Below, piece by piece: positions 10,193 to 29,500 of a DNA stretch of 64,000 nt; position 1 is the stretch's first letter; each line of letters begins with the position of its first letter. The translations under genes and the position numbers were made by a program. The stretch is from IMG/VR virus record IMGVR_UViG_3300022902_000007; one strand, given 5' to 3'. The notes beneath the pieces are model-generated. The model was not told the origin of the DNA. It made no database searches and saw only the letters and a program-made list of their open reading frames with translations. Origin of the DNA: a virus.

Positions 10193-11146
10193 ATGAAGAA
10201 GATACCTGTTAATGACACCTACTTCTGCAAGCACTGCCAAGAAGAGAGGCCAGCTTCTGATTTCTATTCTCGGAACAAGTCTACATGCAAGAAGTGCATT
10301 GTCGCGAAAAAGAAAGCCCGTAGAACTTCTTGTCCAGTCGATGGCTGTGATGGGACTGTAGATCACCGCTCAAAGACGGGGTTATGTAAGCATCATACAA
10401 ATCTTGCCTGGCACAATGGTGTTGATTATTCAGATCTCGAAGCTATAGCGAGGCTTCAGGTAAAGGAATACAAGTGCAGGGCTTGTGGAGTCAGGGTAAA
10501 TTGTCAGTATGAATATTGTATGAGGTGCACTCAGATCAAACATCATTATCCTGAGTACTCTGATGAAGAGATTGCCATGCATGAAACAAGAGCTGTGAGA
10601 GTTAAGAAGCGCAAAGAGAAGAAGGCTGTATATGAATCTTACTTGGAAGAGAATGAGCTCCGGCTATGTCCGAGGTGCAAGAGTGAGAAGTCGAAAGAGG
10701 AGTGGTATAGTGATCAGAGTTATTGGTGTAAGGCCTGTTATCGTGAGGGGCAGAGGAACTATTATCATAGCTACTTGAAGCATGATCCTTGTCACAACAT
10801 CCGGCATTCTTGCAAGAGAATGGTGTCCAAGGCTCTAAAAAGAGTTGGACACTCTAAAGCTGGGAAATCTTTCTTTGAGCATGTCCCCTATACAGTCCAG
10901 GAGCTTAAGACCCACCTTGAAACCCAGTTCACGCCAAAAATGTCTTGGGATAATTATGGTAGTTATTGGGTCATTGATCACATTGTCCCCCAGGCTGTCT
11001 TTAGTTATACTTCCATGGATTCTGCAATGTTCGAAGCCTGCTGGTCTCTCAAGAATTTACAGCCATTGGAACGAACTGAGAATAATAAAAAATCTTCTAT
11101 CTTTAGAGGCAAACGCTGGAATTATGATCCCAGCCGATGGGAATAA
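10193..11146 (+). CDS. free-standing HNH-type (homing) endonuclease with multiple Zn-ribbons
   Basis: Several CxxC pairs in the N-terminal half; C-terminal HLETQFTPKMSWDNYG..WVIDHIVP...CWSLKNLQPL...N..K HNH core; composition differs from flanking structural genes. Confidence 0.8.
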   Translation: MKKIPVNDTYFCKHCQEERPASDFYSRNKSTCKKCIVAKKKARRTSCPVDGCDGTVDHRSKTGLCKHHTNLAWHNGVDYSDLEAIARLQVKEYKCRACGVRVNCQYEYCMRCTQIKHHYPEYSDEEIAMHETRAVRVKKRKEKKAVYESYLEENELRLCPRCKSEKSKEEWYSDQSYWCKACYREGQRNYYHSYLKHDPCHNIRHSCKRMVSKALKRVGHSKAGKSFFEHVPYTVQELKTHLETQFTPKMSWDNYGSYWVIDHIVPQAVFSYTSMDSAMFEACWSLKNLQPLERTENNKKSSIFRGKRWNYDPSRWE

Positions 11147-12778: not shown

Positions 12779-13540
12779 ATGGCAGTTCGAGTAAGTAAGG
12801 TTGATGACAAAACGACAAGAATTGGTCGGGCTCTTGGAGCCAGAGAGACTCAGCTCCTTGAATCAAAGTCTCCCACAGGCGCCGACATTTGGGACAATCT
12901 CGATGATCTCAACGAAGAAGTTGAGGAATCACATGGAGCATTCTTGAAAAATAGCAAGCAGGAGAAAACAGTGAGCAGCCCAGTAGCCCGTCCTACAGGA
13001 CGCAGAGTACCCAGAGCAGTGCAAGCCCAGAGAGAGCTTGCAGAAGAGATCCCCACACCAGCAGAGCCTGAAGAAGATTTTGATACCATGCTCAATAGTG
13101 TTGGCCAAAAGGAAGAGGCTCCTGGTGGAGTCTTCATGAATGAGGATGAGAGGAAGTCCAAGATCCTGGAATACTTGAACAAGCTTCCCAATGCTCCTTC
13201 CGCTGCTCAGATTGCTGAATGGAAAAGAAAGCGTGGTCAGAACGGAGTAAGTGTCATTGTCTTTGATGATGAGAACGTCTTTGTTTATACTTACCTTGAT
13301 AATGCCCAGTGGCGAAAACTACAAGAGAAGATCCAGAAGCTGGCTGAACAGGGTGATAGAGACGCTGAAGATTTGCTCAAGGAGAAGGTCGTGAAGTTCT
13401 GTACCCTGTGGCCAGTGCTTCCAACAGAGTTCTTCTATACTTCTCGGGCCGGCATCCTGGAGAGTCTCTATAACGCCATTTGGACAGAGTCTTATTTCTT
13501 GCGTCCAGAACAAGTTCAGATGCTGACTGTACAGTTGTAG
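12779..13540 (+). CDS. putative tail assembly chaperone 1
   Basis: Between tube genes and the tape-measure locus; disordered acidic N-terminus, C-terminal QIAEWKRKRG..FVYTYL..CTLWP..AGILESL domain. Confidence 0.55.
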   Translation: MAVRVSKVDDKTTRIGRALGARETQLLESKSPTGADIWDNLDDLNEEVEESHGAFLKNSKQEKTVSSPVARPTGRRVPRAVQAQRELAEEIPTPAEPEEDFDTMLNSVGQKEEAPGGVFMNEDERKSKILEYLNKLPNAPSAAQIAEWKRKRGQNGVSVIVFDDENVFVYTYLDNAQWRKLQEKIQKLAEQGDRDAEDLLKEKVVKFCTLWPVLPTEFFYTSRAGILESLYNAIWTESYFLRPEQVQMLTVQL

Positions 13541-14239
13541 ATGCTCGATATAAATGCAATCCTCGAAACTGCAGGGGGCATCTATCAGACCACTACTCCG
13601 GATGGTCACCAGACGTTCTCCTACAGACTCCTTTCCATGAAGGAGTATAGAGTTTTTGCAGCTTTGAGAGACGGCGGCATATTGCCGCCGCATGAGCTTT
13701 TCACACAAGTATTCGACAGATGTCACTTGGGCAGTTTTGTCCCCGATGCTACCAGGGCGGGAATGATCCCCTCTGTTGGCCAATGGATATTGTGGCTCTC
13801 TGGAGACTGTGAATCACAGACACTCAAACAAGACATTGACCACCTTAGAGAATTGCATCCAGCCGATTCTGTCAATGCATATCAGATGTCTATCATAACC
13901 TCTGTCTTCCCCTATAAGCTAAAAGAGATAGAGGCCTGGCCTCGTACAGAGTTCCATCGTCAGTTCGTAATTGCCGAGAATATCTTGGCGAAGCAAAACC
14001 CTGACTTCGAGCGATTCAATACTTCTCAGATTCTCTCACCCGAACAGGTCGAGAAGCTCAAGCAGAAGCAGAACCCTGCCAACATAGACTTTGCCGCCGA
14101 GAACATGTCGATTCGGAAGGGTATGGGCGCTGGTAACGTAGAGGATATGGAAACTGAAATGGGACAAAAGAGGGCACGGGTGAAAGCTTTGACTCGTGCT
14201 CAGGCAGCAAAAATGGATAGAATACGCCGAGGAGGTTAG
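13541..14239 (+). CDS. putative tail assembly chaperone 2
   Basis: In frame directly after the TAG of the previous gene; FSYRLLSMKEY..AGMIPSV resembles the chaperone 1 domain; precedes the tape-measure-like gene. Confidence 0.5.
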   Translation: MLDINAILETAGGIYQTTTPDGHQTFSYRLLSMKEYRVFAALRDGGILPPHELFTQVFDRCHLGSFVPDATRAGMIPSVGQWILWLSGDCESQTLKQDIDHLRELHPADSVNAYQMSIITSVFPYKLKEIEAWPRTEFHRQFVIAENILAKQNPDFERFNTSQILSPEQVEKLKQKQNPANIDFAAENMSIRKGMGAGNVEDMETEMGQKRARVKALTRAQAAKMDRIRRGG

Positions 14240-14242
14240 TTT

Positions 14243-17200
14243 ATGTCTCCAAAGCGTTGGGATTCCCAAGAGAACGTTCCGTGGAATCCTCCGAGTCATA
14301 GAGCTGGAAAGTTAGCTGTAGCCGCCGCCCTCACAGGCGGCGCTGGTTATGCTGCCATGAACTACCGGTTCTCCAGCGGTACGGCAATGGACTATGCCCA
14401 TGCCGTCATCAGACACACTGGTAACGTCTCACCCTACTCTATCCTAAATACGTTCAGAGGCGCTCAGTGGCTCTCTCCCTGGCTTTCGACAGAAGCCCAG
14501 GGGCTGTCATCGGCGAAGGACCTAAAGCTGTCTGGGAGCCTCCCAGGGGCTCCAGGAGCACGCTATCATCACTGGGCAGAGGAGATGATTGGGGACGATG
14601 CCTCCAAGGAGTGGATTCGCAAGGTAGCTGGTAGTAAGAGATTCCAGCAAGCGGGCTTGGATGTCCAGCCTTTCGAGATGCTGTATTCGAGGGGTGGAAA
14701 AGATACCACTGGTGCTGGCTCACTCTGGGCAAGAGTTCGGGGCGGTGATGCCTGGCAGAAGCTATCTGGCAGTGTTTCGCTATTCGAGGCTACTCCTGTA
14801 GATCCCAAGATAGCAGCGACCAGAGGTATTCAGCAGGAGGCGATGAATCCCGCCCTTACTGGCATCTGGGATGCCATGGGGATGAGTGAGATCTGGGGCA
14901 AGAAGAGCTACGGCAAGTTCAGTCGTGCTTTCAGGACAGTCACTGAAGAAGGCAAGCCTGGAGGGATGTCCAAGTACGTTCCTATCCCTGCATTGCTTGG
15001 CAAAGACATTGATGGGTGGCAAGGAGTCCATAGGAGATTCTCCACATATGTAGGCGGGCCTCTGGCACAGGGCATGGGCCGTATGAATCGTCTGCTCGAA
15101 CAGACGATGGACCAGTTACCGATACTCCGTAACGTGAACTATGCATTCGAGCAACAGTTCAAGACGGGTATGGGAGTTCAGCCAGGCCCTGCTTCGAAAA
15201 TGTTTGCTCGCTTCGGAACACGAGCTGCTGCCGTTGGAGCCATCGGCGTTGGTGTCGCTCAAAGCGATTGGATTCGTAGACACTATGGTGTTGGTGGGCA
15301 TCTTGCCGCGACGGGTCTTACGACTACGGCAATCACGTATGCTGCTCACAAGATGTTCAACAGAACTCCTCTGACCTTTGGAGTAGCTGCTGCTTCTGCT
15401 GTAGGCCAGTTGATTCTTCCAGGTTTCAGAGAAGGCTTGGTTCCCGGCGCGATAACGACTGCATCCAATCTTAGTATTGGCAAGTCGATGGTCGGATCTC
15501 TTACATTCATGAATACTTATAGGAGAACCCTTGAGGGGTTCTTGCCAGGTGCTTCTGATTGGAAGACTTCTGTACTGGCTGGTCTGGGTGTAGCTGGTTT
15601 CTCTTATATGGGCGGGTCCGCTGCGCTCATCAAGAAGCATGGTTATAGAGGAATACTCCCTGCCTCTCTTGAGAAATTCATCGGAGTGGAGGGTGCTGAC
15701 TTTGGCTTGCATGCAGACCCACCGCCAACTATCAGGAGTCTGTATAGAGATGAAGTTCATTCCATAGCTCAAAAGCGTCTCGGAACTGAGTACGGCTCCA
15801 TCATGAGTGAGCGTGGATGGGTAAGTTTCAAGAACCGAAAGATTGATCTGGCTCTACAAAGACAGGGCCAGTCGTCTGGCACTTGGCGTGGCCTCATGGA
15901 TGAGCTGGATCTCGCTTGGGAGACAGCATCTACCAAGTATGGTCAGTTCTTGAGCGGTGAGCTGGAGGGCTATCCTAACCTCAATAATTCTCTGCGTTCT
16001 CGCATTGCGAAGATCAATGGAGAATTCCAGGGAAGAACGGCTTCCGCGACCTCCAAGCGCTTTCTTGCGAAGAGTGGTACCAAAATCTGGCACTCATTCT
16101 TGGGAATGAACCCAGCTGTGGCCTCTCTCAGAGAAGACCTCGGTGTGCTCGGTGCGAAGAGTCATCTTGGCAGGCTTGGCTTGTTGTTTGGTGCTGGTGC
16201 TCTTGGCTGGAGCATGGTTACTGGTGGTCTGCTTGGGTCAATGGAGGACCCCTCTGAGCTTGCTGATATATATTCTGGTCGTCAACACGTTACTGTGAAA
16301 GAAGGTAGGGCCTGGGAAGCTGGCGGTGCGCCATTCGAAGGAAAGAAGCCTCTATATAGTCGTCCTCACAACTTCGCTTTGTTAATGAGCAGAGCAAGGC
16401 AGAAGGCCGTATGGGGAGATGACGAAGACGAGATTAGTCCAGTAAAGAAGTTTTTGCTAAAGAACTTCTCATATGAGCTTGAGAAGAGAACCTATTGGGA
16501 CAGGCCTCATGTTGTCTCCAGCGCTGCTTTCGAGGGCATCCCCGTAATTGGCGGGCTCCTGGCTTCTACAATTGGGCAGATCGTGAAGCCACCGAAGCTT
16601 ATGCATATCTCTGAGTGGGCTCGTCAGGGGCCCAATGGGGAGATCGAGTTTGCGCACAAGCCTGAGTATGGGAACATCTCTTACGAGATGGGAGGGTTGA
16701 CGCCTGGTGCTCCGCACTCCCCATACTCCTCTCCGTTCCAAGCTGGTTATGCTGCATACCAGTACAATGAATTGGCAGGTCTGTTTGGCTGGGCGCTGAA
16801 TACGGCTACCAAGGCTGTGACCGGCTCAGACATGTTTGCCACCCAGCGACCCGTATTGGCATCTGCTGGGGCTATCTCTTCAGCACAGAAGGCATTCTGG
16901 GACCTGGAGCTTGCTGGCGCTCTCGGATTATCAGAAGGTATAAGACGCTTTCTTCCAAGGGACCGGAGCGAAGTAGAAGAATATAATCCACTCATTAACA
17001 ACACTCCCTCATGGCTACCTGACAGATTTGCTTACGGTGATCCGTATCGCTCTGTGGACAGGGGACACGTTCGTCTGCCTGGCCCAGGCTATTCAGCTTT
17101 GCACCCTGAGCTGAAAGGCATGGATCCTGAGAACTATCCACGTATCTATCGCTACATGATTCTTGCTGATGTGGCCAATCAATCCAGAGAGTTCAAGCAG

Positions 17201-18370
17201 ACACGTCAGTCGATGTATCAAAAAAGGGCTTCTGGACAAACAACTGATTCTGAAAATCGGATGATGGACCTGGTTGATTCTCGTCTTGAGAAGATTCAGG
17301 CTTATGATACATTCCAATCCGTACATGACAATGCGATTCAAGTACCTGGGTTATCAAGGGTTAGCCAGGGGATGTGGGCTACTGCCCAGAGAGCTTTCAG
17401 AAAGACTGTCGCTCCAGTGGAGTATCTCACTCCGTTCCGTCCTGTTCAGAAACTTCTGTACGACAGAGACAAGATGGAGGCCTATGAGTGGGAAAGACTA
17501 TACGGCGGCCCCAATGCTTTCTGGGATGCACCTCAGCGTGACTTCCTCAGACCTGCAATGTATTCTGCGTTGCACAATTTAGGCTGGGATGGTAAGCCAC
17601 TATGGAGACAAGAAGTAGATAGAGACAAAGAGTATTTTGACAAGTTGGAATTCGTCAAATGGATGAGAGCTGCAGAGTCGGCCCCGACAGGCCAAGAGCG
17701 GCGGCGAGCGCTTCTCAATGCTCAGAAGACGAAGCATGGTGTGAATCCGCAAGGCAGTCCCCTTTCTATATATGCTTCTCTTCCAGAGTCGGAAAAGAGA
17801 TTCTTTGACGCTTTTACTTTCGCGCCTGAAAAAGACCGTGAGCGTATCAAGGAAATGGTTCCTGCTGATCAGGTTCATCTCTATGAAGCCATCTGGAACA
17901 GAGTTGATTCTGGAGATCGGTCTTTGCATCCGGCATCTCCGACCTCTATTGACGAGGCATATCTCAATGCTCGGTTCCATGATTTACAAGGCTACTTCCA
18001 GCAGAATCCATTGCCGCCAGAAGACTGGTCGGGTTGGAAGAGCAATGTCGAGCTTGATGATATCCAGCTTAGATATGTAGAGAGAATCGGTCGAGATATC
18101 CACGATTACGAGATGTGGGACAGACAGAGTCGGCAGCTCACGAGAAAGCCATACCTGGAAGGCTCCGAAGACTTTTTGTTCGAGGGCCACCCTCTAACTC
18201 GTGACTCCATTGCTTCTCAAATCCATGACATGGGTAGACGTCAATCTGGCCCAGCTCCACAGCTGTCTGTTCATTCAGTTCCCGGCAGCTTGTTTGATAC
18301 ACAGGCCAGGTTCTACCATGACGACAATAGAGAAGACGTGATAGGGAGGTTGTTGAATGCCCTCGAATAA
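14243..18370 (+). CDS. tape-measure-like / DNA-ejection protein with several hydrophobic helices (1375 aa)
   Basis: First large gene after the chaperones; Gly/Ala-rich helical sequence with several TM-like segments; RBS GGAGG. Confidence 0.55.
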   Translation: MSPKRWDSQENVPWNPPSHRAGKLAVAAALTGGAGYAAMNYRFSSGTAMDYAHAVIRHTGNVSPYSILNTFRGAQWLSPWLSTEAQGLSSAKDLKLSGSLPGAPGARYHHWAEEMIGDDASKEWIRKVAGSKRFQQAGLDVQPFEMLYSRGGKDTTGAGSLWARVRGGDAWQKLSGSVSLFEATPVDPKIAATRGIQQEAMNPALTGIWDAMGMSEIWGKKSYGKFSRAFRTVTEEGKPGGMSKYVPIPALLGKDIDGWQGVHRRFSTYVGGPLAQGMGRMNRLLEQTMDQLPILRNVNYAFEQQFKTGMGVQPGPASKMFARFGTRAAAVGAIGVGVAQSDWIRRHYGVGGHLAATGLTTTAITYAAHKMFNRTPLTFGVAAASAVGQLILPGFREGLVPGAITTASNLSIGKSMVGSLTFMNTYRRTLEGFLPGASDWKTSVLAGLGVAGFSYMGGSAALIKKHGYRGILPASLEKFIGVEGADFGLHADPPPTIRSLYRDEVHSIAQKRLGTEYGSIMSERGWVSFKNRKIDLALQRQGQSSGTWRGLMDELDLAWETASTKYGQFLSGELEGYPNLNNSLRSRIAKINGEFQGRTASATSKRFLAKSGTKIWHSFLGMNPAVASLREDLGVLGAKSHLGRLGLLFGAGALGWSMVTGGLLGSMEDPSELADIYSGRQHVTVKEGRAWEAGGAPFEGKKPLYSRPHNFALLMSRARQKAVWGDDEDEISPVKKFLLKNFSYELEKRTYWDRPHVVSSAAFEGIPVIGGLLASTIGQIVKPPKLMHISEWARQGPNGEIEFAHKPEYGNISYEMGGLTPGAPHSPYSSPFQAGYAAYQYNELAGLFGWALNTATKAVTGSDMFATQRPVLASAGAISSAQKAFWDLELAGALGLSEGIRRFLPRDRSEVEEYNPLINNTPSWLPDRFAYGDPYRSVDRGHVRLPGPGYSALHPELKGMDPENYPRIYRYMILADVANQSREFKQTRQSMYQKRASGQTTDSENRMMDLVDSRLEKIQAYDTFQSVHDNAIQVPGLSRVSQGMWATAQRAFRKTVAPVEYLTPFRPVQKLLYDRDKMEAYEWERLYGGPNAFWDAPQRDFLRPAMYSALHNLGWDGKPLWRQEVDRDKEYFDKLEFVKWMRAAESAPTGQERRRALLNAQKTKHGVNPQGSPLSIYASLPESEKRFFDAFTFAPEKDRERIKEMVPADQVHLYEAIWNRVDSGDRSLHPASPTSIDEAYLNARFHDLQGYFQQNPLPPEDWSGWKSNVELDDIQLRYVERIGRDIHDYEMWDRQSRQLTRKPYLEGSEDFLFEGHPLTRDSIASQIHDMGRRQSGPAPQLSVHSVPGSLFDTQARFYHDDNREDVIGRLLNALE

Positions 18371-21300
18371 CTTTGCATACCCGAGAGACACTCAGTCAGA
18401 TGTCTACACAGCCGCTTCATTTTTGAAGAGGGGTGCCAGCATTGTGCCTGCTGCAGTAGGTATCGGTATTGGTGTGAGAGCAGTACTGAGCAATACTCCA
18501 GAAGCCCTCCAGGGGCTTCCTACCAATCACTTAGGAGATGCTGGAGCTCATGTCGGCGGTGCTGTCAGAAAGATGCATCAGTACAAGACGGACAGAGGAA
18601 ACAAAATAGCCGACGAGATTATCGGAAATCTTAGAGAAGGTCTGAGAGACAAGGGGAATCTGAGGCAAGCTCTGCAGTCTTCCCACGAAGAACTAAATGC
18701 GAAGATATCAGCCATCGTTGCAGCCCTGGATGAGCCCAGTATTGCTGGGGACGGCGGAGAGCTTTTACAAAGGAGGAAGGAAGAGCTTCTGTCACTCATG
18801 AGGGAAGAGGGTGATGCAATAGATCAGAAGGCAGCCCAAATGATTGAGGACACTGTCAAGGATATCTATTCAACTGCAACGGCAGATGGTAAGAGAAGAT
18901 TTGGTGAGCATCTGACAAAGTACGAACGACTCCGTAGTCAGCTCGCTCCTCCAGATTTTGTTCACAAGTCTGGTCAATCGTTCTCGACAATAAGTGATAC
19001 AGCCAGTCTCAGCAGCAGAGCCCGTGGTCAGCTCGATTCACTGTCTGGTATGCTCAGAGGCCAAGGTCGTATTGACGTAGTCAAGCACAGTTCTGGTTCG
19101 ACTTACGCTCGTGTATACGCCTCGGATGCTGCGAATGCTCGACATATCATGGACTATCCTCTTCAGTATAGGACCATGGGTGGGGTTCCAATTATTCATA
19201 CAGGTGAGGGGCTTACGACTCCTCGTGCTGCAGATCTGCTTTACACTTCTGCAAGAAATGTGCAAGAAGCCTTTGGCGGCACAGCCAGGGGGGCAACTGT
19301 CACCCGTCAAATGGTACAGGAGAACTTACTGGGTACTGGAAAAGCCTATGATTACAGAGGCTTGCTCAGAGGAGAACTGAGAAGTCGCTTAGGAGCGGCA
19401 AGGGGGAATTTGTCAGCTGTTGAGAACATGAATGAGTTCTCTCGTCAGTATCTGGCCAACATCGACAAGGCTGCTTTCGGCCGAGGAGCTTTTGCCCAAC
19501 ACCTACAAGCCCAGACCGTAAGGACTCATTCCAGAATGACAATCACTGGCTATGAGCAGGTCTCCAAGTCTACAAGGCAGTCTCAAAGGGCAATGCTGAT
19601 GGCAGCCTCTCCTGAAGCTGAGTTGGCTCCTCATGGCTTTGGAGGAGCACGACCTTTCTTCGATCCTGCCGTTGGTCATGAGTTCACTGTGGACCCTACT
19701 GGTAGAATGTCTGCGCAGGTTGGTATCAGGCAATACAAAGGCACTGGAGCAGCGATTACTCGTATCCGGAATCCCTTCCAGACTCGTGCGATGTATCCAG
19801 CCACCATGCGTATCGATCAGGCTCTGAAGAGAACTGAGTCATTCGTCCCCGGAAACAATGTTCCTTCCACTCTTGGTAGCTCTGGTACTTATAGGCATTT
19901 CGGGCAAAACATCGAATGGGCTGATGACATGGTTCGCGGAGGGCTCAACAAGGTTGCTGTGCTGACTCCGGCGAACATGGCGATAGGTCTCGGAGAAGGA
20001 GAGTTCTACACTGGCGGACGATTCGTCGTCGAGTCTCCGATCACGAAGACTGTCTTTGATCCAGGTTCCATGAAGACCCCATCATCGAAGCTCCTCAATA
20101 GACTTGTCAGCGAGGGACAGATCAGCCTTACAAGCGGAGCAGATATCAATCAGTTCTTTGGCGAGACAAAGGGGTTTCTTGGGCTTGGCGGTTCTGGAGA
20201 AACCTATCTCACAAGGAAGCAGGGCCTAATTGGATTGAATCTGACTGCTACGCCGACACAGATTGGAGACAGAAAGGTGTGGGAGATTGTTGGTAGTGGA
20301 CGCTATCTCGAAGACCCAAAGATGTTTGGGATGCATGCGAAGGCTACCTCTCGGCGTATTGGCGCAGCAGGCTTCGGCCGTGTAAGCGGAATGGTTGGTG
20401 CTGATATACTTGGAGAGACAGGTGCACTCGGACTGGGCCGAAGTGATCTCATTGTCGGCCCTGGCAAGATGTTCAAGAAGGGGGCAGGAGGGCTCATTGA
20501 TCAGATGGCCGGAGCCATGGGACTAATGAAGAAGTTCGCTGGTCCCCAAGCTGCTTATCAGGCAGCCACCCAGGGCATGTATGATCCAGCTACTCAGATG
20601 TTCAACAAGTCTACTCTCAATGCGCTGGCTTCTGGCAACACGGGTGTGGTCCTGATGAAGACTGCTGAAAACGTTGCGAGACAGATGGCTCCTATGCAGG
20701 GGCAGATATCACCGAATGTGATGGGCCGAGTATTTGGGAGTCTTCATAGCTACGGTGGTAAGCATGGTGTCAGTCAAGACGCCCTGATGGGTATGCTTGG
20801 GCAACACTTCTCTGCTGATTACATGGCCAAGCTTGGTCCTGCTGTTCAGCAAGGTATCGGCATAACTCCTACGACTCTGTTCTCTGGGCCGACTCTCGGT
20901 TCTTGGGGCTCCACCAGAGCCTCCATGGAGCCTCGCTTTCTCGGCTTGATGCACAAGACGCTAACTGACAGCTTAGGTATGGACAGAAGCTCTGCCAATG
21001 ACATCCTCGCTGGATTCATGGCAAGGAAACCAGGTGCTGCAGATGCATTGAATGCTGCGAAATCTCTCACCAGAATGCAGGCTACCATCTCTGGTGCAAG
21101 ATCGATGCTGGATGAAGACTTGCTTCAGTCCATGAGGAGGGTCGGAGCTAAAGACTTTGCAATGGCTGGCGGCTCAGATGCGGCCATGGAGAAATTCTTG
21201 AGAAGTGTTGGCAGTGATTTTGTACTGGATTTCAGTGGCAATGAGTTTGTTGAGCGAGCCGCTCGCAAAGCTTTCCACAATAATACTTCGTTATTCATTC

Positions 21301-23546
21301 CTGGATCCGAAGCACTCAATCAGATGAACAAGGCCCTCATTAAAGGCCCCTCTGGCAATGTAGAAATCAAACCAGAATTCATCAGGAGAATGGAACGGCT
21401 CAGTGGTGTAGTCAGAGACCTCATGGGTCTCCAGGCAGGAGCCTCTGCGGATCAGATCTCCAGTCATGTCAGCAATCTCACTGGCTGGGCTCATGGAATG
21501 GATCGACTATACGGACAGACTGTTCACAACCTCGGACGTGGGAAGCTTGCTGGCTCGGCTTATGTCAGAGCACAGTCTCTCGTGTTTGGTGAGAATGGCT
21601 CTGCTGACTTCAACATGGAACAGCTGAAGAGAATGCAACAGCAATACACTGGCGCCAAGGGCCATGCTGTCTTCGTTGACTCTCAAGCGTTTCTGTCCAA
21701 GATGAGAGACTCCATATCAGCAGCTGAGAAGGAACTGCTTGGTGCTGGTGAGTTCACTGGGGGAAGAGCCAGAGGCGGAGCTGTCCGTAAGGCTGGCCTT
21801 GAGTATCGTAACTTCTTCCTCGGCTCAGAGAGAGGGATGAGAATGGGCTCAATGAGTCTCATTCAGCGGCACCCGACGTTGACGAATCCTCACATTGCTC
21901 CAACTCAAGTCTATCGTGTCGCTTCCGAGACTGGAACGACTGATGACATATTCAGGAAGTTCGTGCAGACCAGTGCCGGCAAGAAGGCCCTCGCTGAAGT
22001 ACAAGGCAAGGCTGGACAGGGGATCTCTCTTGGAAGTTTCAGTGACATGGCGAAAGTCTGGCAGACGAGGAATAGAGGAGCACGAATCAAGATCAACAAG
22101 TTCTTCCAGTCCATGGCTTCACACGTTACTGATTTCATGACCGAAGAAGGCGGTGGTAAGGTATTCTTCCCGGAGTTTGACGTCAACATTCACTATGCCG
22201 GCGGGAAACTCGAAGGTGTCAACTTCTCTCCTTGGGCTGCAGCTGGCGGTGACCACGATGCAGACATGGCAGGAATGATCTCTGTATTTTCCAAGAAAGG
22301 CCGGGAGCTCACAGGCTCTCCAGCAGCAAGAGAAAAACTTGCTCGTTCTGTCCACAGACAGACCGCCGAGGGCCTGGTCATGAGGAGTCAGATTAGTGAG
22401 GGTATTGCTCGATATGCTGGGGGACTAAGCTCTACTGCAGCCCTTTCGCCATGGGAGCAAGGGCTTGAGTCTGTCTTGAAAGAACAGGCTGGTAAGGATA
22501 TCGGTAAACTTTCTACGACTCTGGGCGCTGTTCGGCAAGGGATCTGGGCTGAAGCCAAGCCAGGCCAAGAACTCATGGCAAGACAAGCAGTCGCGTTTCT
22601 TGGTGGCGCCGAGGAAGCTACACAGATTGCCTCCAAGCACTTGAGTCGTGCTCTTGATGTTGGTAGCGTCTTGAAGGCCACACTCGATCACGCAATGCAA
22701 ACTGGAGAGATTGACAAGTTTGAAAGTCTTGTCAGGAACGTGCTACTCAAAGGCAGTCCTATTCTCGGAGAAGGAATTAGTATTGAAGGTGTCACTGCTG
22801 GGAAGGCTGGCGATATCTCTGCTCGCATGGCAGCAACAGCTGAAAGGAATCTGTCTGGCCAAGCCATTGGGTTCGGCGAAGAGTCCATTGATTTGATTCG
22901 TCGTGCTGCTGTTAGAGCTCAGCAAGAGGGATACAAGGCATCTGTCACGGCGAGGGGTATCGAGTCAGTGGTCGGTAGGCATTCTCCGCAGGCTCAAGTT
23001 GCTGCTGACGCTTTGAGAAATGACTGGAGGCTCATGGCAGCAATGGGTCCGCAGGCGGGGATAGAAGCTGTTGGAGAATTCGCGAGGCAGGTAGGGAATA
23101 GGATCAGTACCTTCAGTAGAGCCATGGACAAGCGTTTCCTCGGGCCTGCTATAGTTGGTATTGGTGCTGCAGTGGGTCTTGGGGCAATGGTCGGGAGTCC
23201 AGGTTACTCTGCTGAGCCATTGATTGCCCCGGGAGAGGTGGTCACTCCGAGAGTCAAAGATGCCGTTGCAGCTGGTAGCCTATTTGATCAAAGTGTCAAG
23301 GCTCCGATGGCAGAGAACTTTGCTTCAAGTGATCGGCTCAACATTACGGATCGTCCAATTAATCCAGGTACTGCATACTTTGAAAGACGAAACGCTTATC
23401 AAATCAGAGGTGGATTGAGGAATCGTTCTGCAATTGGTGAAGTCAGTAATTTCATTAGTGGTATCGGTGGCTCTGCTTCGATTAGAATCAATGATACTCG
23501 CAGGCCATTGACTCCGAATTACATTGACCGAATCACTTCAGAGTAA
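18357..23546 (+). CDS. putative virion-associated single-chain two-barrel DNA-dependent RNA polymerase (1729 aa)
   Basis: Collinear beta-like motifs (RAMYPATMRIDQAL, GGLNKVAVLTP..GEG, KMFGMHAK, DLIVGP, GSTRASME) followed by beta'-like motifs (HNLGRGKLAGSAY, IQRHPTL, GGDHDADM, bridge-helix-like LKEQAGKDIGKLSTTL, trigger-loop-like GAEEATQIASKH). Confidence 0.75.
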   Translation: MPSNNFAYPRDTQSDVYTAASFLKRGASIVPAAVGIGIGVRAVLSNTPEALQGLPTNHLGDAGAHVGGAVRKMHQYKTDRGNKIADEIIGNLREGLRDKGNLRQALQSSHEELNAKISAIVAALDEPSIAGDGGELLQRRKEELLSLMREEGDAIDQKAAQMIEDTVKDIYSTATADGKRRFGEHLTKYERLRSQLAPPDFVHKSGQSFSTISDTASLSSRARGQLDSLSGMLRGQGRIDVVKHSSGSTYARVYASDAANARHIMDYPLQYRTMGGVPIIHTGEGLTTPRAADLLYTSARNVQEAFGGTARGATVTRQMVQENLLGTGKAYDYRGLLRGELRSRLGAARGNLSAVENMNEFSRQYLANIDKAAFGRGAFAQHLQAQTVRTHSRMTITGYEQVSKSTRQSQRAMLMAASPEAELAPHGFGGARPFFDPAVGHEFTVDPTGRMSAQVGIRQYKGTGAAITRIRNPFQTRAMYPATMRIDQALKRTESFVPGNNVPSTLGSSGTYRHFGQNIEWADDMVRGGLNKVAVLTPANMAIGLGEGEFYTGGRFVVESPITKTVFDPGSMKTPSSKLLNRLVSEGQISLTSGADINQFFGETKGFLGLGGSGETYLTRKQGLIGLNLTATPTQIGDRKVWEIVGSGRYLEDPKMFGMHAKATSRRIGAAGFGRVSGMVGADILGETGALGLGRSDLIVGPGKMFKKGAGGLIDQMAGAMGLMKKFAGPQAAYQAATQGMYDPATQMFNKSTLNALASGNTGVVLMKTAENVARQMAPMQGQISPNVMGRVFGSLHSYGGKHGVSQDALMGMLGQHFSADYMAKLGPAVQQGIGITPTTLFSGPTLGSWGSTRASMEPRFLGLMHKTLTDSLGMDRSSANDILAGFMARKPGAADALNAAKSLTRMQATISGARSMLDEDLLQSMRRVGAKDFAMAGGSDAAMEKFLRSVGSDFVLDFSGNEFVERAARKAFHNNTSLFIPGSEALNQMNKALIKGPSGNVEIKPEFIRRMERLSGVVRDLMGLQAGASADQISSHVSNLTGWAHGMDRLYGQTVHNLGRGKLAGSAYVRAQSLVFGENGSADFNMEQLKRMQQQYTGAKGHAVFVDSQAFLSKMRDSISAAEKELLGAGEFTGGRARGGAVRKAGLEYRNFFLGSERGMRMGSMSLIQRHPTLTNPHIAPTQVYRVASETGTTDDIFRKFVQTSAGKKALAEVQGKAGQGISLGSFSDMAKVWQTRNRGARIKINKFFQSMASHVTDFMTEEGGGKVFFPEFDVNIHYAGGKLEGVNFSPWAAAGGDHDADMAGMISVFSKKGRELTGSPAAREKLARSVHRQTAEGLVMRSQISEGIARYAGGLSSTAALSPWEQGLESVLKEQAGKDIGKLSTTLGAVRQGIWAEAKPGQELMARQAVAFLGGAEEATQIASKHLSRALDVGSVLKATLDHAMQTGEIDKFESLVRNVLLKGSPILGEGISIEGVTAGKAGDISARMAATAERNLSGQAIGFGEESIDLIRRAAVRAQQEGYKASVTARGIESVVGRHSPQAQVAADALRNDWRLMAAMGPQAGIEAVGEFARQVGNRISTFSRAMDKRFLGPAIVGIGAAVGLGAMVGSPGYSAEPLIAPGEVVTPRVKDAVAAGSLFDQSVKAPMAENFASSDRLNITDRPINPGTAYFERRNAYQIRGGLRNRSAIGEVSNFISGIGGSASIRINDTRRPLTPNYIDRITSE

Positions 23547-23549
23547 TAT

Positions 23550-26500
23550 ATGACGCTTCCAATCGCCGGGGCAGTAGTTCTTCCTCGGGACATTTTTCGT
23601 GTTAACGATATAAATCTTTCCATTCCTCCCAGTCAGATCTCTGTCAGGAAGGAAGACCTCATTTGGTCATGGAAGACCCTGCGCACCAAGGCATCTACCA
23701 AGGTACCGAGTGGGCATGGAATGGTTCAGGCGTCTCTGTCAATCTATTTCACTCCAGACCTCTTGCTGGACTTGATAAGGCTGATAGTTCAGTTTAGGCA
23801 TTCTCCGTTCTGCTGGGTCGAGAATGAGTACCTGAGACAATCAATATGTCCTCACTGGCCCCTGTATCAGTCAATGGCTTTCACAATGTCGTCGATCCAT
23901 GTAGCCCCCTTTCGGGGGCATCCTGGGACTTTCATTTGTGAGATAGACCTCCGCTGGTTCAATTACTTCCCATATGCTTTCAACTATCTGTTCAGAAGAG
24001 AATGGCTCACTGAGCCTCTGAAGAATCAGAGCAACAATGTTCAGTTGTCCATTCCGACATATGGCAGAGTCGAAGGAATCGACCTTCCTGTCACTCAGAC
24101 AATCATCACGAGTCCTCAAGATCTCGCGAACGCAATAGAAGAGTATGATGTAATCTCTGGTGCAAAGAGAGATATTGTAGCAGGCTCCACAGTCCAAGAC
24201 ATGGAAGCACGGCATGGCGGCGTTGTCTTTGACAACATGCCTCTCCCGAATAGAATGGCCAAGTCAGAGGCTGTGCAAGACCCCGCTGCGTCCAACATCT
24301 ATGTCAGGTATATCAATTCTCTCATGCAAAAGAGATTGTGGGAAGGATTCGGTATTGATGCCGCCGGCGACATCATTGATGCTGTGGATGAAAGGTATTG
24401 GAGCAGATTCACTGCTGGTGAAGAACAGCCTTCGAGGACCTTCCGAATCGTCCGCCGCTTGAATGATATCTCACAGCTTCCTGCTGGAGTTGCTGATGAA
24501 TGGATAACCAAGATTCTTGCAACCACGAAGTACACTACATTCACTTGGCACCAGTATCTCTCTGTAGAGTTGCCTCCAAAACTACAGAAAGCAATGAAGG
24601 AGTTCCACACCAAGATAATTGAAGGAGAAGTGAAGAAGTTCCAATGGATGAGAGAAGAGACCCAGAAGACTCTGGATGAATGGGCCAGTAGGAAATACGG
24701 AGCATCGTATTCCTCTGGTGAGATTATTCCTGGAGCAAAGCCTGGAAACGAAGATTCTCTGAACCACTTGCCTTGGTATCCGCCCTGTAAGGCAGCTCCG
24801 GTAACATCAGTATTTACAATCACTCCTCCGTATAGGCTTCACCCAAAGCTCAACAAGTATCTTCCTCACTATGGACTTGATGTGGGTATCGCCGAAGGCA
24901 CTCCGCTGTACGCTACCAATGACGGTATTCTGTATAAGGAGGAATCCGAGGGCGGTGGACTTGGAGTCTACATCGTTCACAATCCACTTGATATGCGGAC
25001 CAGATATTTGCACATGTCTGGTTATGCTGATGAAGTGGAATCTGGAGAGACCGTGTCACGCGGGCAGTTGATTGGCTATTCGGGCAATACTGGCCGTTCC
25101 AGCGGCCCACATCTTCACTTCGAGATGAAGAAGATTTCGACTGGGCAGTTGCAAGACCCATTCATTCTGCTAACGAACCAGAGCTTCTGGAATAGCAATA
25201 CTGATTATCCTGAGGATGTCGAGGCTTCTGACTTCGGTACGGACATAGATACTGATCTGGATATAGATTCTGACGTAGACACCGATGCCCTCGGAAATGA
25301 TGTTCGAGATCCTGATGGCGACAGTCCCAATGTACCGAGTAACTCAGCAGACATAGAGAAAGGTCTTGGAGACGGCGGGGCTATCGGTCTGACAGATGAA
25401 GAGAAGCAGCTCGTAGCTGATACTTACGCTGAACTCATTGATGAGGGCTGGGTCTATTACGAGAAAGATCAGTCGGTAACCAATGTCTGGCAGCGAGCTG
25501 TATCAATAATGGTTGATACGGACTGGCTGCTTGAAAACAAGGAAGCTACTGGAGAGTTACTGTTCAAGGAAGGGGCTATTATTTCTTCCATGGCTGGTTC
25601 TCTGCAGCATGTCATTGCGAGCATCCCAATTCTCGGCCATGAGTTCCCGACTCATCAGCATCTGGGATCAATTGAGCCTAACTACATGATTGAGTTTGCT
25701 CTCCTGGATGACGGAGAGAAGAATACTGGGATCGGTACGATTGGTAAGATGTTAGAGACCATGAGAGCTTCTCTCCAGGAGAACGCTCGCACATTCAGAA
25801 TCATACCTGACTGCTGGACTCTTGCTACAGACCATTTCATCACTCGTCTCTTCGGTAGTTATTCGGAGACAGACATTCTGTTGGATGACGAAAATGGGCA
25901 AACAGAAATCAAGAAACGCTCAGCTATCTCTGCGTCTCAGACAGAGACGAAGCAGGGTAACCCCGGCTTGTCTGCGATGGTTTTTGAATTCTCGGAGACC
26001 AATCCTTACGAGACTGAGTTCATAGTAGCTGAGCCCAGCCTTGTAGACGATATAGAAGACAGAAGAAAAGAAGTACTCCATGCCTTGTATGACATGTCAC
26101 TATCGGATCCGGGCAAGACTGCAGCTATCCTCGCAATGGGGGAGATGCTCAGTGTAGACGAAATCGATTCATTCAGGCAGAATGATGAGTGGAAAGCAGC
26201 TAATGGAAGAGTGGGTGGAAAAGATCAGTCAGTAGTCACTTTCGACAATTTCTCTGTGGCCGCTGACCCGATGCTGCTGACAGCCGGAGCTGTAGGTCTG
26301 CCTCCATCGTCAACTGACCAGGTAGATCCTGTGCAAGCACTTATCGCCCAAGCTGCTGGGATCGGCACAATCGGTTATCAGGAACACCTGGACCTGATAG
26401 ACATAGATACTGCTTTGAGGAATTCTCCTGAGCTTGATCCTCTGTATGCAGAGGGAGCTGGTTTCGTTTCCGAGACACGGAACGGTGACTTCTATTTCAA

Positions 26501-29500
26501 AGCAGGAGAATATCCATCTACTACAGCTTATGATGCCACTGAGTTCTATAGACTCTATCCAGAGCTGGAAGGTGTGGATCTCGACGAATTGGCTGGGCTT
26601 TACAGTATCCTTCGGTCGCTCCTCAGAGCTACTCGCAGAATGCTGGTTGATGAGGGTGTCCCGAATGCTCATGGCGCTGATGAAGTCTGGAAGAGACTCT
26701 ATGAGATGCCAGACAAAGCTGCGGTCAAGCCTCAGATGTATTCCCAGTTCGTTTACTACCTCGCTCAATTGCTTGGAGGAGATACTGGAATTGAACGTCT
26801 TCATCTTGCAGGTATTGGAGACCGATATATCGATCTCGATGCGATCTCACAAGAAGACAAAGAAGAGCTCAGAGAAAGAGAGCTATTGAACTCAATGAAG
26901 AGTGGTATCTGGCAGCTCTGCTTTGACGCTCCAACTCAGTTGTTCTTGCACACTCTGGCTGCTTATTCATTCTTCAATGATGCTGGTATTCAGGTGCTGT
27001 CTGGTACTGATATTGGAGACATCCAGTGGGGGCAGCTGAACAAGAATCTCAAGCTCTCCTATCAGAGTGAGAAGGCCCAGGATGCTGTTGACGAGTATGT
27101 ATGGCTGCTTCCAATAGACGCCTCAGTTCCTGAACAACTTGCCAATTCGTTCCCCTTGTTGGGAGATGTGGTTTCTCGTGGCGGCGATCTAAGTCAGTCC
27201 TTCGGACTGCATGCGTCTTTCGACAAGTTCCTTCTCTCAAGCTGGCTGATCCATGCAAGGACTTCGGCATTCTGGCCAGAGATAATGAAAGCCAACAGAG
27301 GGAACATCCAGGCATACCAGACGTTGGTTGGAGCTGCAGAACGAGCCTTCCCAGATGACCCAAAAGTTCAAGCTGCTATCGAGCAGGCTGGCAAAGAGGC
27401 CAGCAGTGTGAAATGGACTGCTGATGCCCCTGGGGAAAGCAAAACACAAGAGATCTCAGAAGCCTACAAGGCTGCCGCCGAAGCTGTCATCGAAGCACTC
27501 CCTCAGTCTCACATCAGGTTCCCCTGCAGCACTTCCATAGAGTCCAACAAAATATCTTGGTTGAAGAAGCTGTACCAGACTCTTGCCGACAGAATCTTGG
27601 AAAGTCCTCGACTTCTCGCATTGTTCGGGCTTGAAGATCTCCTGAACTTTGATGCTGGTAGTCAACATCGTGGATCTGAATGCTACCCCGATCTTGACCT
27701 GCCCAAGCATCCTTACTATCCAGAAAACTTCAATGCCACCTCTCCTGATTTCTACATGTGGAACATGTACGAAGATGGCCCTGGTGCTCTAACACAGGAG
27801 ATGTTGCAGGTTGTAAGTGAGCAAGCTACTCAAGCAATTCAGGGCCCTTACGAGCATTTGAAAAGCATGATGGGGAACGGCATCAAGCCGTTTGCAGAGA
27901 GAGATGAATGGCTGACTGTATATGGTGATGACGGCTCTTCTGAACTTACGCCAAGACTTTCAGCATTACGGGCTTCATGGGAGGGATCTGATGAGAACCT
28001 CGTCAAGATGGGGTCTGAATACATCAGTATGCGAGAGATGCAGGCAGCTTTCCCAGACCCTGAAGCTCTGGAAGAATGGAGATCGAGGGGCGACGACGGG
28101 CTGAGGGAGCTTGGGAACAAGGTCAAGTCTTTGAAGGGCACTGCCCAGAGTGTAGAGGCTGTTGATACAGCTATCGGAATGCCTGGAATCAACGACCCAA
28201 AAAGTGATGAATACACGCAGGCCTATTCATTGGAGAACCTGTACAAGACCCTGGTTGATTTGCAACAGGATATCAGGCCTCTCTCTCCTCTCCTCTCTGC
28301 TTTTGATGGTAATCCGCAGTACACTCAGATTCCAAGAGCTGACCTCGACACTTACAAGGACCTCGTAAAGAAGGTCCAAGAGACAAAGACATTCTTTGGT
28401 TCACGAGCTGGTTATCTCGGCGACCGCATCACCAAGGACACAGCCAAGCTGATCACGGATTCTACTACAGACACTCGTGTAGCAGCGTTAGATGCTTACA
28501 CCCATGCTTTCGACCCAGCTTCTCTTTTGAGGCTTGCTCAGGATTCAGCTGCTGACATTCTCTCAGAGAAGATGACTCTACGTAGAGCATATCCTACTTT
28601 CAAGCTGATGTTTGTTGAAGAGGACGAGTTCGAAAGTCGCTGGCTGAACTTTGATGACTTCCACTCTTACAACTCTGTTAAGGAATTTACCATTGTAAGA
28701 AGTCGTGACATGGCTGCCTCTACGGCTCATATCACTCTTCAGAATGTATCTGGAACTCTGGATGGCACCAAGCGAAACGTAATCACTGATTTGGACTATT
28801 TCCAAGAAGCAGAGATAGAGCAGATTGAAGGTGACGCCAAGTATACGATGATGGATGCTCGATCAGAGTCTGCACCAAGAATTGATTCATCTCAAGACCA
28901 GCCGTTTGGAGCCCTGGTCCTTAGGCCAGGGCTGAATGTCCAACTCCGAGTAGGATTCAGCAATGATCCTGGGATGCTCGAAGTGATGCTCTCTGGCCGA
29001 GTCACAGATGTAACCTGGTCTACTAATGGAGACATGGCCGAGATAGTGGTTCAGTCTTTCGGGACCGAGCTCGTACAGGCCCTCAAGGGCAGAGATGAGT
29101 TCTATGACCAAAACGGCGAGCCTAACGCCGAACAGGAGATTTACGAGACTACCCATAAACTGCTGGGGTCAATGATGCTGAGTCCTGAACTCAGACATTT
29201 CGGTAGATGGGAATGGGGCCAGCTTTATCAGTACGGCGAATCCAAAGATTCGCGTCTTGATTTCTATGACTATGCGAGGGATTCTTTCCTGAACAAGTTC
29301 AAGGTGATGACTGGCGTTTCCAGATGGATTGCTCGTCACCCTGTGCTTACATGTGTGTCTGCTATTGGCTTGGCAGCGTTGGCGACCTTTACTCCGATCA
29401 GGGGTGGGGCCGGCTTCCTATCAAAAGGGTTAGCTGGATTCGGAAGGGTCGGCAGGTGGATCGGCCTTGGAAGAGCTGCTGCAACTGTTTCTGATGACGC

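What the first reader, a model, noticed from the sequence alone, without database searches (positions are those of the whole stretch)
18357..23546. Hidden single-chain two-barrel RNA polymerase in the tail tape-measure locus, with a non-canonical DHDAD catalytic loop
Seen in sequence: the 1729-aa ORF looks like a second tape-measure protein, but it has ten motifs in the order of bacterial RNAP beta then beta'. Beta-like: R477 RAMYPATMRIDQAL ~ RALMGANMQRQAV; G528 GGLNKVAVLTP..GLGEGEF ~ GQNMRVAFMPWNGYNFED; K655-MFGMHA-K662 ~ KMAGRHGNK (the two catalytic lysines); D697 DLIVGP ~ DIVLNP; R854 GSTRASME ~ GGQRFGEME. Beta'-like: H1057 HNLGRGKLAGSAY ~ QNLLGKRVDYSGR; R1171 IQRHPTL ~ LNRAPTL; D1299-H-D-A-D1303 (nt 22251-22265) ~ DFDGD; K1375 LKEQAGKDIGKLSTTL ~ bridge helix; E1419 EEATQIASKH ~ trigger loop EPGTQLTMRTFH. 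Established knowledge: virion-delivered single-chain two-barrel RNAPs occur in crAss-like phages and, fused to the tape measure, in Thermus phage P23-45. Inference: this myovirus injects its own highly divergent RNAP through the tail to transcribe early genes. Here it is a stand-alone gene with its own GGAGG RBS, sitting between the tape-measure-like gene and the hub.
Basis: partly seen in the sequence, partly recalled or inferred. Interest (0 to 1): 0.95.

Follow-up and report, generated by a model that had tools for sequence, protein, structure and literature searches.

The report
RNA polymerase in myovirus tail operon
A 1729-residue gene that no annotation library recognises, lying among the contractile-tail genes of an uncultured 132-kb phage, is predicted to fold as a one-chain version of the cell's RNA polymerase with its catalytic residues intact; the phage probably carries it in the particle to switch on its first genes, and cultured phages with a similar gene make this testable.

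Summary
Observation confirmed; interpretation supported except for two details. The ORF and all quoted motifs are where stated. In 48 homologues about 20-45% identical, D1299/D1301/D1303, K655, K662 and R1171 are invariant. Two confident AlphaFold models (pLDDT 87-89) match RNAP beta (aa 220-852) and beta' (aa 913-1548); the 18 best structural hits are all two-barrel RNAPs. 'DHDAD' is only a minor variant: the family consensus is DFDGD. The gene sits in the slot of the presumed tape measure of Bacillus phage 0305phi8-36 (gp146, a virion protein by mass spectrometry) and shares its C-terminal module. That module also occurs alone (193 aa), so the polymerase looks like cargo on a virion module rather than the tail ruler. 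The same genome encodes a second, YonO-type RNAP between terminators followed by a conserved AT-rich motif with almost no sigma70 promoters, the layout expected if a virion RNAP starts transcription. Cultured phages ME3, WH1 and KLEB27-3 have motif-bearing genes in this slot. Activity, packaging and injection are inferred, not shown. No paper found describes the family; this scan has noted it in at least 23 other genomes.

The parts
18357..23546 (+). Gene for the 1729-aa single-chain two-barrel RNA polymerase (candidate virion RNAP)
18345..18349 (+). Shine-Dalgarno-like GGAGG, 7 nt before the ATG; the start overlaps the last 14 nt of the upstream gene
   Evidence: sequence
18432..18491 (+). 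aa 26-45, hydrophobic segment in the low-confidence N-terminus (aa 1-55); also seen in several homologues and ME3 gp036
18522..18941 (+). aa 56-195, helical accessory domain, only generic helical-bundle matches
19014..20912 (+). aa 220-852, beta-like half: aligns to second-largest RNAP subunits from their N-terminus through the first barrel; 107-aa strand-rich insert between G548 and K655 is a probable reduced flap (inferred)
20319..20342 (+). Invariant K655 and K662, the two basic residues of the beta-type barrel
21093..23000 (+). aa 913-1548, compact beta'-like half (helical clamp-like part, second barrel, bridge and trigger helices)
21552..22361 (+). aa 1066-1335, second double-psi beta-barrel with a helical insert; invariant R1171 and P1173
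   Evidence: DPBB hits 7dww, 7dbo, 1cz5
22251..22265 (+). Catalytic loop D1299-x-D1301-x-D1303; family consensus DFDGD
22449..22646 (+). aa 1365-1430, probable bridge helix (K1375, E1376, G1383) and trigger helix (E1420, K1427); assignment inferred from order, conservation and helical state
23034..23546 (+). aa 1560-1729, C-terminal virion module: hydrophobic segment 1593-1616 plus small conserved end domain shared with 0305phi8-36 gp146, with a 193-aa stand-alone gene and, weakly, with the upstream protein
14243..18370 (+). Upstream 1375-aa gene, homologue of 0305phi8-36 gp145 (virion protein by MS), ME3 gp035, WH1 gp096; directly after the chaperone-position genes; best tape-measure candidate but unproven
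23550..31985 (+). 2811-aa baseplate-hub-type gene with M23 peptidase domain (slot of gp147)
12779..14239 (+). Two genes (253, 232 aa) in the position of the tail chaperones gp143/gp144; assigned by synteny only
7096..9405 (+). Tail sheath gene (contractile tail)

Best explanation
The gene encodes an active, DNA-dependent, single-chain two-barrel RNA polymerase that is made late with the tail proteins, built into the virion through its conserved C-terminal module, and delivered to the host at infection. It then transcribes a small pre-early region that includes the phage's second, YonO-type RNAP. Shown here computationally: fold, catalytic residues, conserved position in the tail operon, shared C-terminal module, second RNAP, conserved intergenic elements. 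Inferred: catalysis (about 0.9), DNA template and RNA product (about 0.9), packaging (about 0.8), passage through the tail tube rather than from the head (about 0.55; a folded enzyme of this size cannot pass a tube a few nm wide, so it would have to travel partly unfolded and refold), and recognition of the AT-rich element as promoter (about 0.5).
For: Invariant DxDxD, two lysines and RxP in 48 diverged homologues; the query keeps 46 of 49 highly conserved columns, within the family range of 43-49. Models at pLDDT 89/pTM 0.89 and 87/0.84. The 18 best of 48,161 chains are two-barrel RNAPs: beta-type Z 9.3-11.1, beta'-type Z 7.8-9.1, QDE-1 Z 10.0 (366 aligned, rmsd 4.3), P74-26 gp62 Z 8.3; gp96 Z 6.4; all 50 Foldseek PDB rows are RNAPs. 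In loci chosen only by the upstream gene, all 38 full-length large genes in this slot carry DxDxD. The slot is that of 0305phi8-36 gp146, a virion protein by MS, whose C-terminus the family profile hits at E 3e-7 among 159 C-termini. Own genome: PF05183 RNAP of 1087 aa flanked by strong terminators, with 2 sigma70-like sites against 6.4 expected in 11.6 kb; terminator plus TTTTARYGG element recurs beside the orthologous gene in two relatives. Precedent: P23-45 gp96/gp64 (10.1101/2022.12.01.518664).
Against: Foldseek E-values against solved structures are only 1e-3 or weaker and there is no significant sequence or profile similarity to E. coli RpoB/RpoC. The MS-confirmed gp146 itself has no DxDxD, so virion evidence concerns the slot and end module, not an RNAP-bearing protein. 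A second RNAP was found in only 5 of 20 related records, 4 of 13 near-complete, plus one motif-only candidate; the AT-rich element was not seen within the short flanks of three of those five. Homology to ME3, WH1 and KLEB27-3 slot proteins rests on synteny, motifs and predicted-structure hits, not on significant sequence scores.
Confidence: 0.72

Rival explanations
1. It is a true tape-measure-RNAP fusion like P23-45 gp96: the whole chain is the tail ruler and ejection-channel protein, with the polymerase built in.
For: Occupies the slot assigned as tape measure in 0305phi8-36 (PMC2147016); hydrophobic segments near both ends; sits just before the hub.
Against: About 1500 of 1729 aa are a compact folded enzyme. 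The slot gene ranges from 1546 to 3222 aa through internal inserts while the upstream gene is far less variable, and in L051 the slot holds only the 193-aa end module. In Moorella phage MTATph1 the slot is split by a transposase insertion. The gp146 assignment rested mainly on length.
Confidence: 0.12
2. It is an active two-barrel RNAP but not a virion protein: a middle/late polymerase that happens to lie in the late operon, or one packaged in the head like crAss-type cargo.
For: No direct virion data. A clamp-like helical part (beta'-type N-terminal matches; clamp domain 3qqc Z 5.8) makes it bulkier than the flat gp96.
Against: Position between chaperone-slot, gp145-like and hub genes is fixed in every locus examined; it ends in a module shared with a virion protein; a separate YonO-type enzyme is available for later transcription.
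Confidence: 0.09
3. It is a two-barrel nucleotidyltransferase with another job: primer synthesis, RNA-templated synthesis, or a motor that pulls DNA in by transcription.
For: QDE-1 and RDR2 are among the best whole-chain matches; some members carry a 3'-5' exonuclease or helix-hairpin-helix insert. A DNA-pulling role is compatible with the main reading.
Against: The beta half follows DNA-dependent cellular beta subunits from their N-terminus; the genome has its own DnaG primase; all characterised phage two-barrel enzymes are DNA-dependent (PMC7824862; own knowledge).
Confidence: 0.05
4. This copy is a dead enzyme kept as a structural protein.
For: H1300 and A1302 differ from the consensus; K1425 of the family is Ala here; RNAP-less forms of the slot exist.
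Against: All three aspartates, both lysines and RxP are kept; Ala at position 4 occurs in 19 of 85 members; overall conservation is typical for the family.
Confidence: 0.03

Closest known systems
Thermus phage P23-45 gp96 (tape-measure-fused virion RNAP; PDB 8h2m/8h2n; 10.1101/2022.12.01.518664, PMC10770324)
   Same: Single chain, two barrels, DxDxD, encoded in the tail operon, paired with a second single-chain RNAP in the same genome; AT-rich motif near the early genes. Structural match Z 6.4, 311 aligned, rmsd 3.9.
   Different: gp96 is the N-terminal part of a 5002-aa tape measure of a non-contractile tail and is flat and clamp-less. Here the tail is contractile, the enzyme fills most of a 1729-aa chain, has a full beta-like N-terminal part and a probable clamp, and the second RNAP is of the unrelated PF05183 type rather than a paralogue. 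No sequence similarity.
Cellular, poxvirus/ASFV and phiKZ/AR9 multisubunit RNAP beta and beta' subunits
   Same: Best structural matches: beta 350-438 residues aligned from near its N-terminus, Z 8-11; beta' Z 8-9; same order of catalytic motifs; probable flap-like insert.
   Different: One polypeptide; beta' half very compact (about 75 aa from the aspartate loop to the bridge helix); lysines 7 apart rather than 8; no significant sequence similarity; fused to a virion module.
crAss-like phage virion RNAP (phi14:2 gp66), QDE-1/RDR2 and YonO
   Same: Single-chain two-barrel enzymes; QDE-1 Z 10.0 and RDR2 Z 9.8 over both barrels; crAss enzymes are virion-delivered (own knowledge; PMC10770324).
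   Different: No PF05183 match; QDE-1-type chains do not appear among the best hits of the aa 1-860 model; crAss phages are podoviruses. gp66 was not listed in the fold searches, which is inconclusive.
Bacillus phage 0305phi8-36 gp146 ('hypothetical tape measure', virion protein by MS; PMC2147016)
   Same: Same slot between gp145 and the hub gp147; homologous C-terminal domain (E 3e-7).
   Different: gp146 (2537 aa) has no DxDxD or RxP-type motif: same anchor, different cargo.

Membership tests
Two-barrel (double-psi beta-barrel) polymerase superfamily | Two DPBB domains | tested here: met
   aa 457-854 match beta-type barrels (Z 9-12), aa 1066-1335 match isolated DPBBs and beta' (Z 6-9)
Two-barrel (double-psi beta-barrel) polymerase superfamily | DxDxD metal-binding triad in the second barrel | tested here: met
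   D1299/D1301/D1303 invariant in 48/48; consensus DFDGD
Two-barrel (double-psi beta-barrel) polymerase superfamily | Two basic residues from the first barrel | tested here: met
   K655 and K662 invariant in 48/48
Two-barrel (double-psi beta-barrel) polymerase superfamily | Barrels juxtaposed so that lysines face the aspartate loop | tested here: inconclusive
   Coordinates not available; pTM 0.89 and single superpositions spanning both barrels on QDE-1, RDR2, gp62, gp96 are consistent
Two-barrel (double-psi beta-barrel) polymerase superfamily | Template-dependent RNA synthesis | not testable with these tools
   needs in vitro assay
Virion RNA polymerases (functional class) | Present in the particle and active before phage protein synthesis | not testable with these tools
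   Indirect only: tail-operon synteny and end module shared with MS-confirmed gp146
P23-45 gp96-type tape-measure-fused vRNAP | RNAP is part of a long tape-measure chain | tested here: not met
   Enzyme covers about aa 56-1550 of 1729; the slot can hold a 193-aa gene
P23-45 gp96-type tape-measure-fused vRNAP | Flat, clamp-less structure | tested here: inconclusive
   aa 913-1548 align with clamp-bearing beta' chains (Z 8-9) and the clamp domain 3qqc (Z 5.8, middling); a clamp is probable, not shown
P23-45 gp96-type tape-measure-fused vRNAP | Detectable sequence homology to gp96 | tested here: not met
   No hit in PDB sequences or in 50,697 phage records
YonO / RdRP (PF05183) single-subunit RNAPs | Match to PF05183 | tested here: not met
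   No Pfam hit at E 0.1; the genome's other RNAP does match
crAss-like gp66 vRNAP | Structural or sequence similarity to phi14:2 gp66 | tested here: inconclusive
   Not listed in fold searches; no sequence hit
Cellular-type (multisubunit clade) RNAP beta | SBHM flap inserted in the beta barrel (PMC7824862) | tested here: inconclusive
   107-aa strand-rich insert between G548 and K655 at the flap position; not folded or searched alone
Tape measure proteins | Long, mainly helical, non-globular chain matching TMP profiles | tested here: not met
   Globular alpha/beta models; no Pfam, PHROG or NCBIfam hit; language-model TMP look-alikes score only 0.80-0.82

The most novel reading that the evidence does not exclude
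In 0305phi8-36/ME3-like myoviruses the presumed tape-measure slot is an exchangeable cargo slot: a small C-terminal module, shared with the upstream protein, loads whatever is fused to it into the contractile tail. The usual cargo is a distinct clade of fused RNAP with a nearly complete cellular-type beta half and a compact beta' half, which is injected unfolded, refolds, and starts at AT-rich promoters built into the ends of terminators.
Probability: 0.33. Interest if true: 0.87.

Novelty: new variant of a known kind. Interest (0 to 1): 0.72.

Why it matters
Virion-borne two-barrel RNAPs are known from phiKZ-like jumbo phages (multisubunit), crAss-like podoviruses and one Thermus siphovirus. 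This adds a large, unannotated clade in contractile-tailed phages of 130-235 kb. [quoted passage not shown] It would revise the tape-measure annotation of this lineage, raise the question of how a ~180-kDa enzyme passes a tail tube, give a new point in the evolution between multisubunit and single-chain RNAPs, and offer small sigma-independent polymerases with candidate promoters.

Tried and rejected
Pfam, PHROGs, NCBIfam, PDB-sequence, GenBank-phage tblastn and ESM-Atlas searches gave nothing useful for the protein. hhalign to E. coli RpoB/RpoC was not significant, although the best RpoC segment is the aspartate loop. Direct pattern scans for relatives in IMG/VR failed. The first, narrow C-terminal profile did not hit gp146 significantly (E 2.2; hhalign E 0.023); only the broader profile did. 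Family profiles do not significantly hit ME3, WH1 or KLEB27-3 slot proteins. PF05183 rang in only 2 of 27 related records. phi14:2 gp66 did not appear in any fold list (absence not informative). A search for an RNAP elsewhere in the L049/L051 genomes was empty but uninformative (35-50% complete). The atlas fold library and the sequencing-run finder were unavailable. A large re-alignment timed out. PMC2171028 (0305phi8-36 proteomics) is not held; no papers on WH1 or KLEB27-3 virions were found. Ten literature searches found no description of this family; PMC12619734 and PMC10638138 concern other lineages. Rejected: that DHDAD signals special chemistry or a dead enzyme; that the protein is a plain second tape measure. 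No complex prediction was run.

Full report
Setting. The window is nt 8007-72006 of a complete 132,519-nt virus record. It holds the virion operon: major head protein at 2030-3325, tail sheath at 7096-9405, baseplate J at 33275-34513 and a 2811-aa hub-type protein with an M23 peptidase. Three large genes follow two chaperone-position genes: 1375 aa (14243-18370), the 1729-aa gene in question, and the hub.

Observation. The ORF is open and all quoted motifs are in place; its only DxDxD is at 1299-1303. No Pfam, PHROG, NCBIfam, PDB-sequence or GenBank-phage search names it.

Family. An exhaustive search found 73 representatives at E up to 0.001, mostly 1600-2100 aa. In a 48-sequence alignment with 20% mean column identity only 15 columns are invariant, and they include D1299, D1301, D1303, K655, K662, R1171, P1173, E1376, E1420 and K1427. 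The consensus loop is DFDGD; Ala at the fourth position occurs in 19 of 85 members and His at the second in 2, and the two closest homologues have DxDGD. The query keeps 46 of 49 highly conserved columns, typical for the family, so there is no sign of decay.

Structure. aa 450-1550 fold at pLDDT 89, pTM 0.89 as a globular alpha/beta protein, which excludes a plain tape measure. Against 48,161 solved chains the 18 best hits are all two-barrel RNAPs: aa 457-854 match second-largest subunits (Z 9.3-11.1), aa 913-1548 largest subunits (Z 7.8-9.1), and QDE-1 (Z 10.0, 366 aligned, rmsd 4.3), RDR2, P74-26 gp62 (8.3) and P23-45 gp96 (6.4) align across both halves; isolated double-psi barrels match aa 1066-1335. 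Foldseek agrees, with weak E-values of 1e-3 or more. A second model, aa 1-860 (pLDDT 87, pTM 0.84), shows aa 1-55 unconfident, aa 56-195 a helical bundle, and aa 220-852 aligning with beta subunits from residue 24-47 onward, 350-438 residues aligned. So the chain holds a nearly whole beta homologue. Between G548 and K655 lies a 107-aa strand-rich insert where cellular beta has its flap; PMC7824862 says this insert is absent from YonO and RdRP types, which would set the family apart from them, but I did not test the insert alone. The lysine-to-aspartate distance could not be measured.

Context in relatives. Synteny is fixed in every homologue locus read. To avoid selecting on the answer I fetched 55 loci by the upstream gene alone: all 38 full-length large genes in the next position carry DxDxD about 430-520 aa from the end, including members too distant for the profile; some of these loci are duplicates. 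They range from 1546 to 3222 aa; one has a helix-hairpin-helix insert and one a 3'-5' exonuclease. In two loci the hub is the next large gene, and in L051 the slot holds a 193-aa protein that is just the C-terminal module, hydrophobic segment plus end domain (E 9e-5). That argues against this gene being the tail ruler.

Cultured phages. The upstream gene is homologous to 0305phi8-36 gp145, ME3 gp035, WH1 gp096, KLEB27-3 and MTATph1 genes. The next gene in 0305phi8-36 is gp146, annotated hypothetical tape measure and identified in virions by mass spectrometry; the assignment rested mainly on length (PMC2147016). gp146 has no DxDxD, but its last ~70 residues match the family's end domain at E 3e-7 among 159 C-termini. 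The upstream family's C-terminus is weakly similar to the same domain (hhalign 61%, E 8e-5, internal controls at most 1%). In WH1 gp095, KLEB27-3 gp034 and ME3 gp036 the slot protein has DxDxD 390-520 aa from the end, preceded by RYP in the two Bacillus phages; hhalign places the lysine pair on a matching ME3 motif, without significance. Among predicted viral structures, the models hit an ME3 protein in two halves of 801 and 802 aa (E 1e-6 and 9e-6), which by length is gp036, and a 1258-aa half-protein that by length is probably WH1 gp095 (identification by length is my inference).

A second polymerase and candidate promoters. Outside the window, G000 118909-122172 (minus strand) encodes a 1087-aa PF05183 (YonO/RdRP-type) protein with DDDGD. 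It lies in a G+C-rich island (0.55-0.56 against 0.46) cut into short units by five UUCG hairpins with T runs, each followed by an AT-rich motif ending in ARYGG. One such terminator lies about 80 nt before its start codon, so it needs its own promoter, yet the 11.6-kb region has 2 sigma70-like sites against 6.4 in shuffles. The pattern was derived from these sites, but it recurs independently: five times around the orthologous gene in G011, whose slot RNAP is about 30% identical, twice in G001, and in a related form before a candidate second RNAP in G012. An orthologue of the second RNAP was found in 5 of 20 related records, so the cascade is common but not shown to be general. This mirrors P23-45, where the virion enzyme uses AT-rich promoters to transcribe pre-early genes including the non-virion RNAP (10.1101/2022.12.01.518664).

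Mechanism. Most likely the protein is made late, attached to the tail or baseplate through its end module together with the gp145-like protein, ejected on contraction, probably partly unfolded, perhaps held at the membrane by its hydrophobic segments, and then transcribes the pre-early cassettes. The fold, residues, synteny and module are computed results; catalysis, packaging, route and promoter use are inference.

Novelty. It works like P23-45 gp96 and crAss gp66 but is not a member of either family by the tests that could be run. Ten literature searches found no description; the survey in PMC10770324 does not list ME3, WH1 or Microcystis phages. This scan has already noted the family in at least 23 other genomes; those notes are not independent support. 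Verdict: real, a new variant of a known kind, interest 0.72.

Noticed in passing
G000 118909-122172 (-) = L007:6390-9653, outside the window: Second RNAP, 1087 aa, PF05183 (YonO/RdRP type) with DDDGD; orthologues in G001, G004, G005, G009, G011.
   Followed up: yes
G000 118866, 122242, 123654, 124242, about 125680 (-): Five UUCG terminator hairpins each followed by an AT-rich ARYGG motif; the same element in G011 and G001. Candidate virion-RNAP promoters. G011's record begins exactly with one copy.
   Followed up: partly
L007:2830-5240 (-): Further G+C hairpins downstream lack the T run and are followed by a short CTTATGA-like motif; possibly a different terminator class. Two tRNA-like sequences lie nearby (about L007:4790-4865 and 3745-3820), not scanned.
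   Followed up: no
window 14243-18370: The gp145-like protein has a C-terminal half far more conserved (45-60%) than the RNAP, no known domain, and inteins or homing endonucleases in several homologues, which is odd for a tape measure; its function is unexplained.
   Followed up: partly
L051:12402-12983: 193-aa slot gene made only of the C-terminal module, without RNAP.
   Followed up: yes
L013:17285-24641 (Moorella phage MTATph1): Slot gene lacks DxDxD and appears split by a transposase insertion; CDS0031 looks by eye like the C-terminal module.
   Followed up: partly
ME3 (NC_041884), 798-aa ORF near record 224.5-226.8 kb (-): A 798-aa ME3 protein matches both models structurally (E about 1e-6), but the only ORF of that length found has no DxDxD: possible degenerate or variant second RNAP.
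   Followed up: partly
BFVD hits: Large proteins of Microcystis phages MaMV-DC and Ma-LMM01, a Siphoviridae 'minor tail protein' and an uncultured-phage protein (E 1e-15) also resemble the model: more hidden RNAPs are likely.
   Followed up: no
L047:6361-11823; L026:12358-19800; L035:12206-21874: Family members with a 3'-5' exonuclease domain (aa 234-389), a helix-hairpin-helix insert, or up to about 1400 extra residues inside the second barrel.
   Followed up: partly
G012 12974-19501 (-): 2175-aa protein with RxP and DNDGD, preceded by terminator-plus-ARYGG elements: candidate second RNAP not matched by PF05183 or by this genome's enzyme.
   Followed up: partly
window 10193-11146: HNH endonuclease-like gene inserted among the tail tube genes.
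   Followed up: no
G000 77469-82348 and 102494-103725 (-): At least nine short ORFs begin with a near-identical N-terminal motif ending in a serine run (paralogous family of unknown function).
   Followed up: no
G000 108146-110245 and 113290-113850 (-): Paralogous genes built of 69-nt (23-aa) tandem repeats.
   Followed up: no
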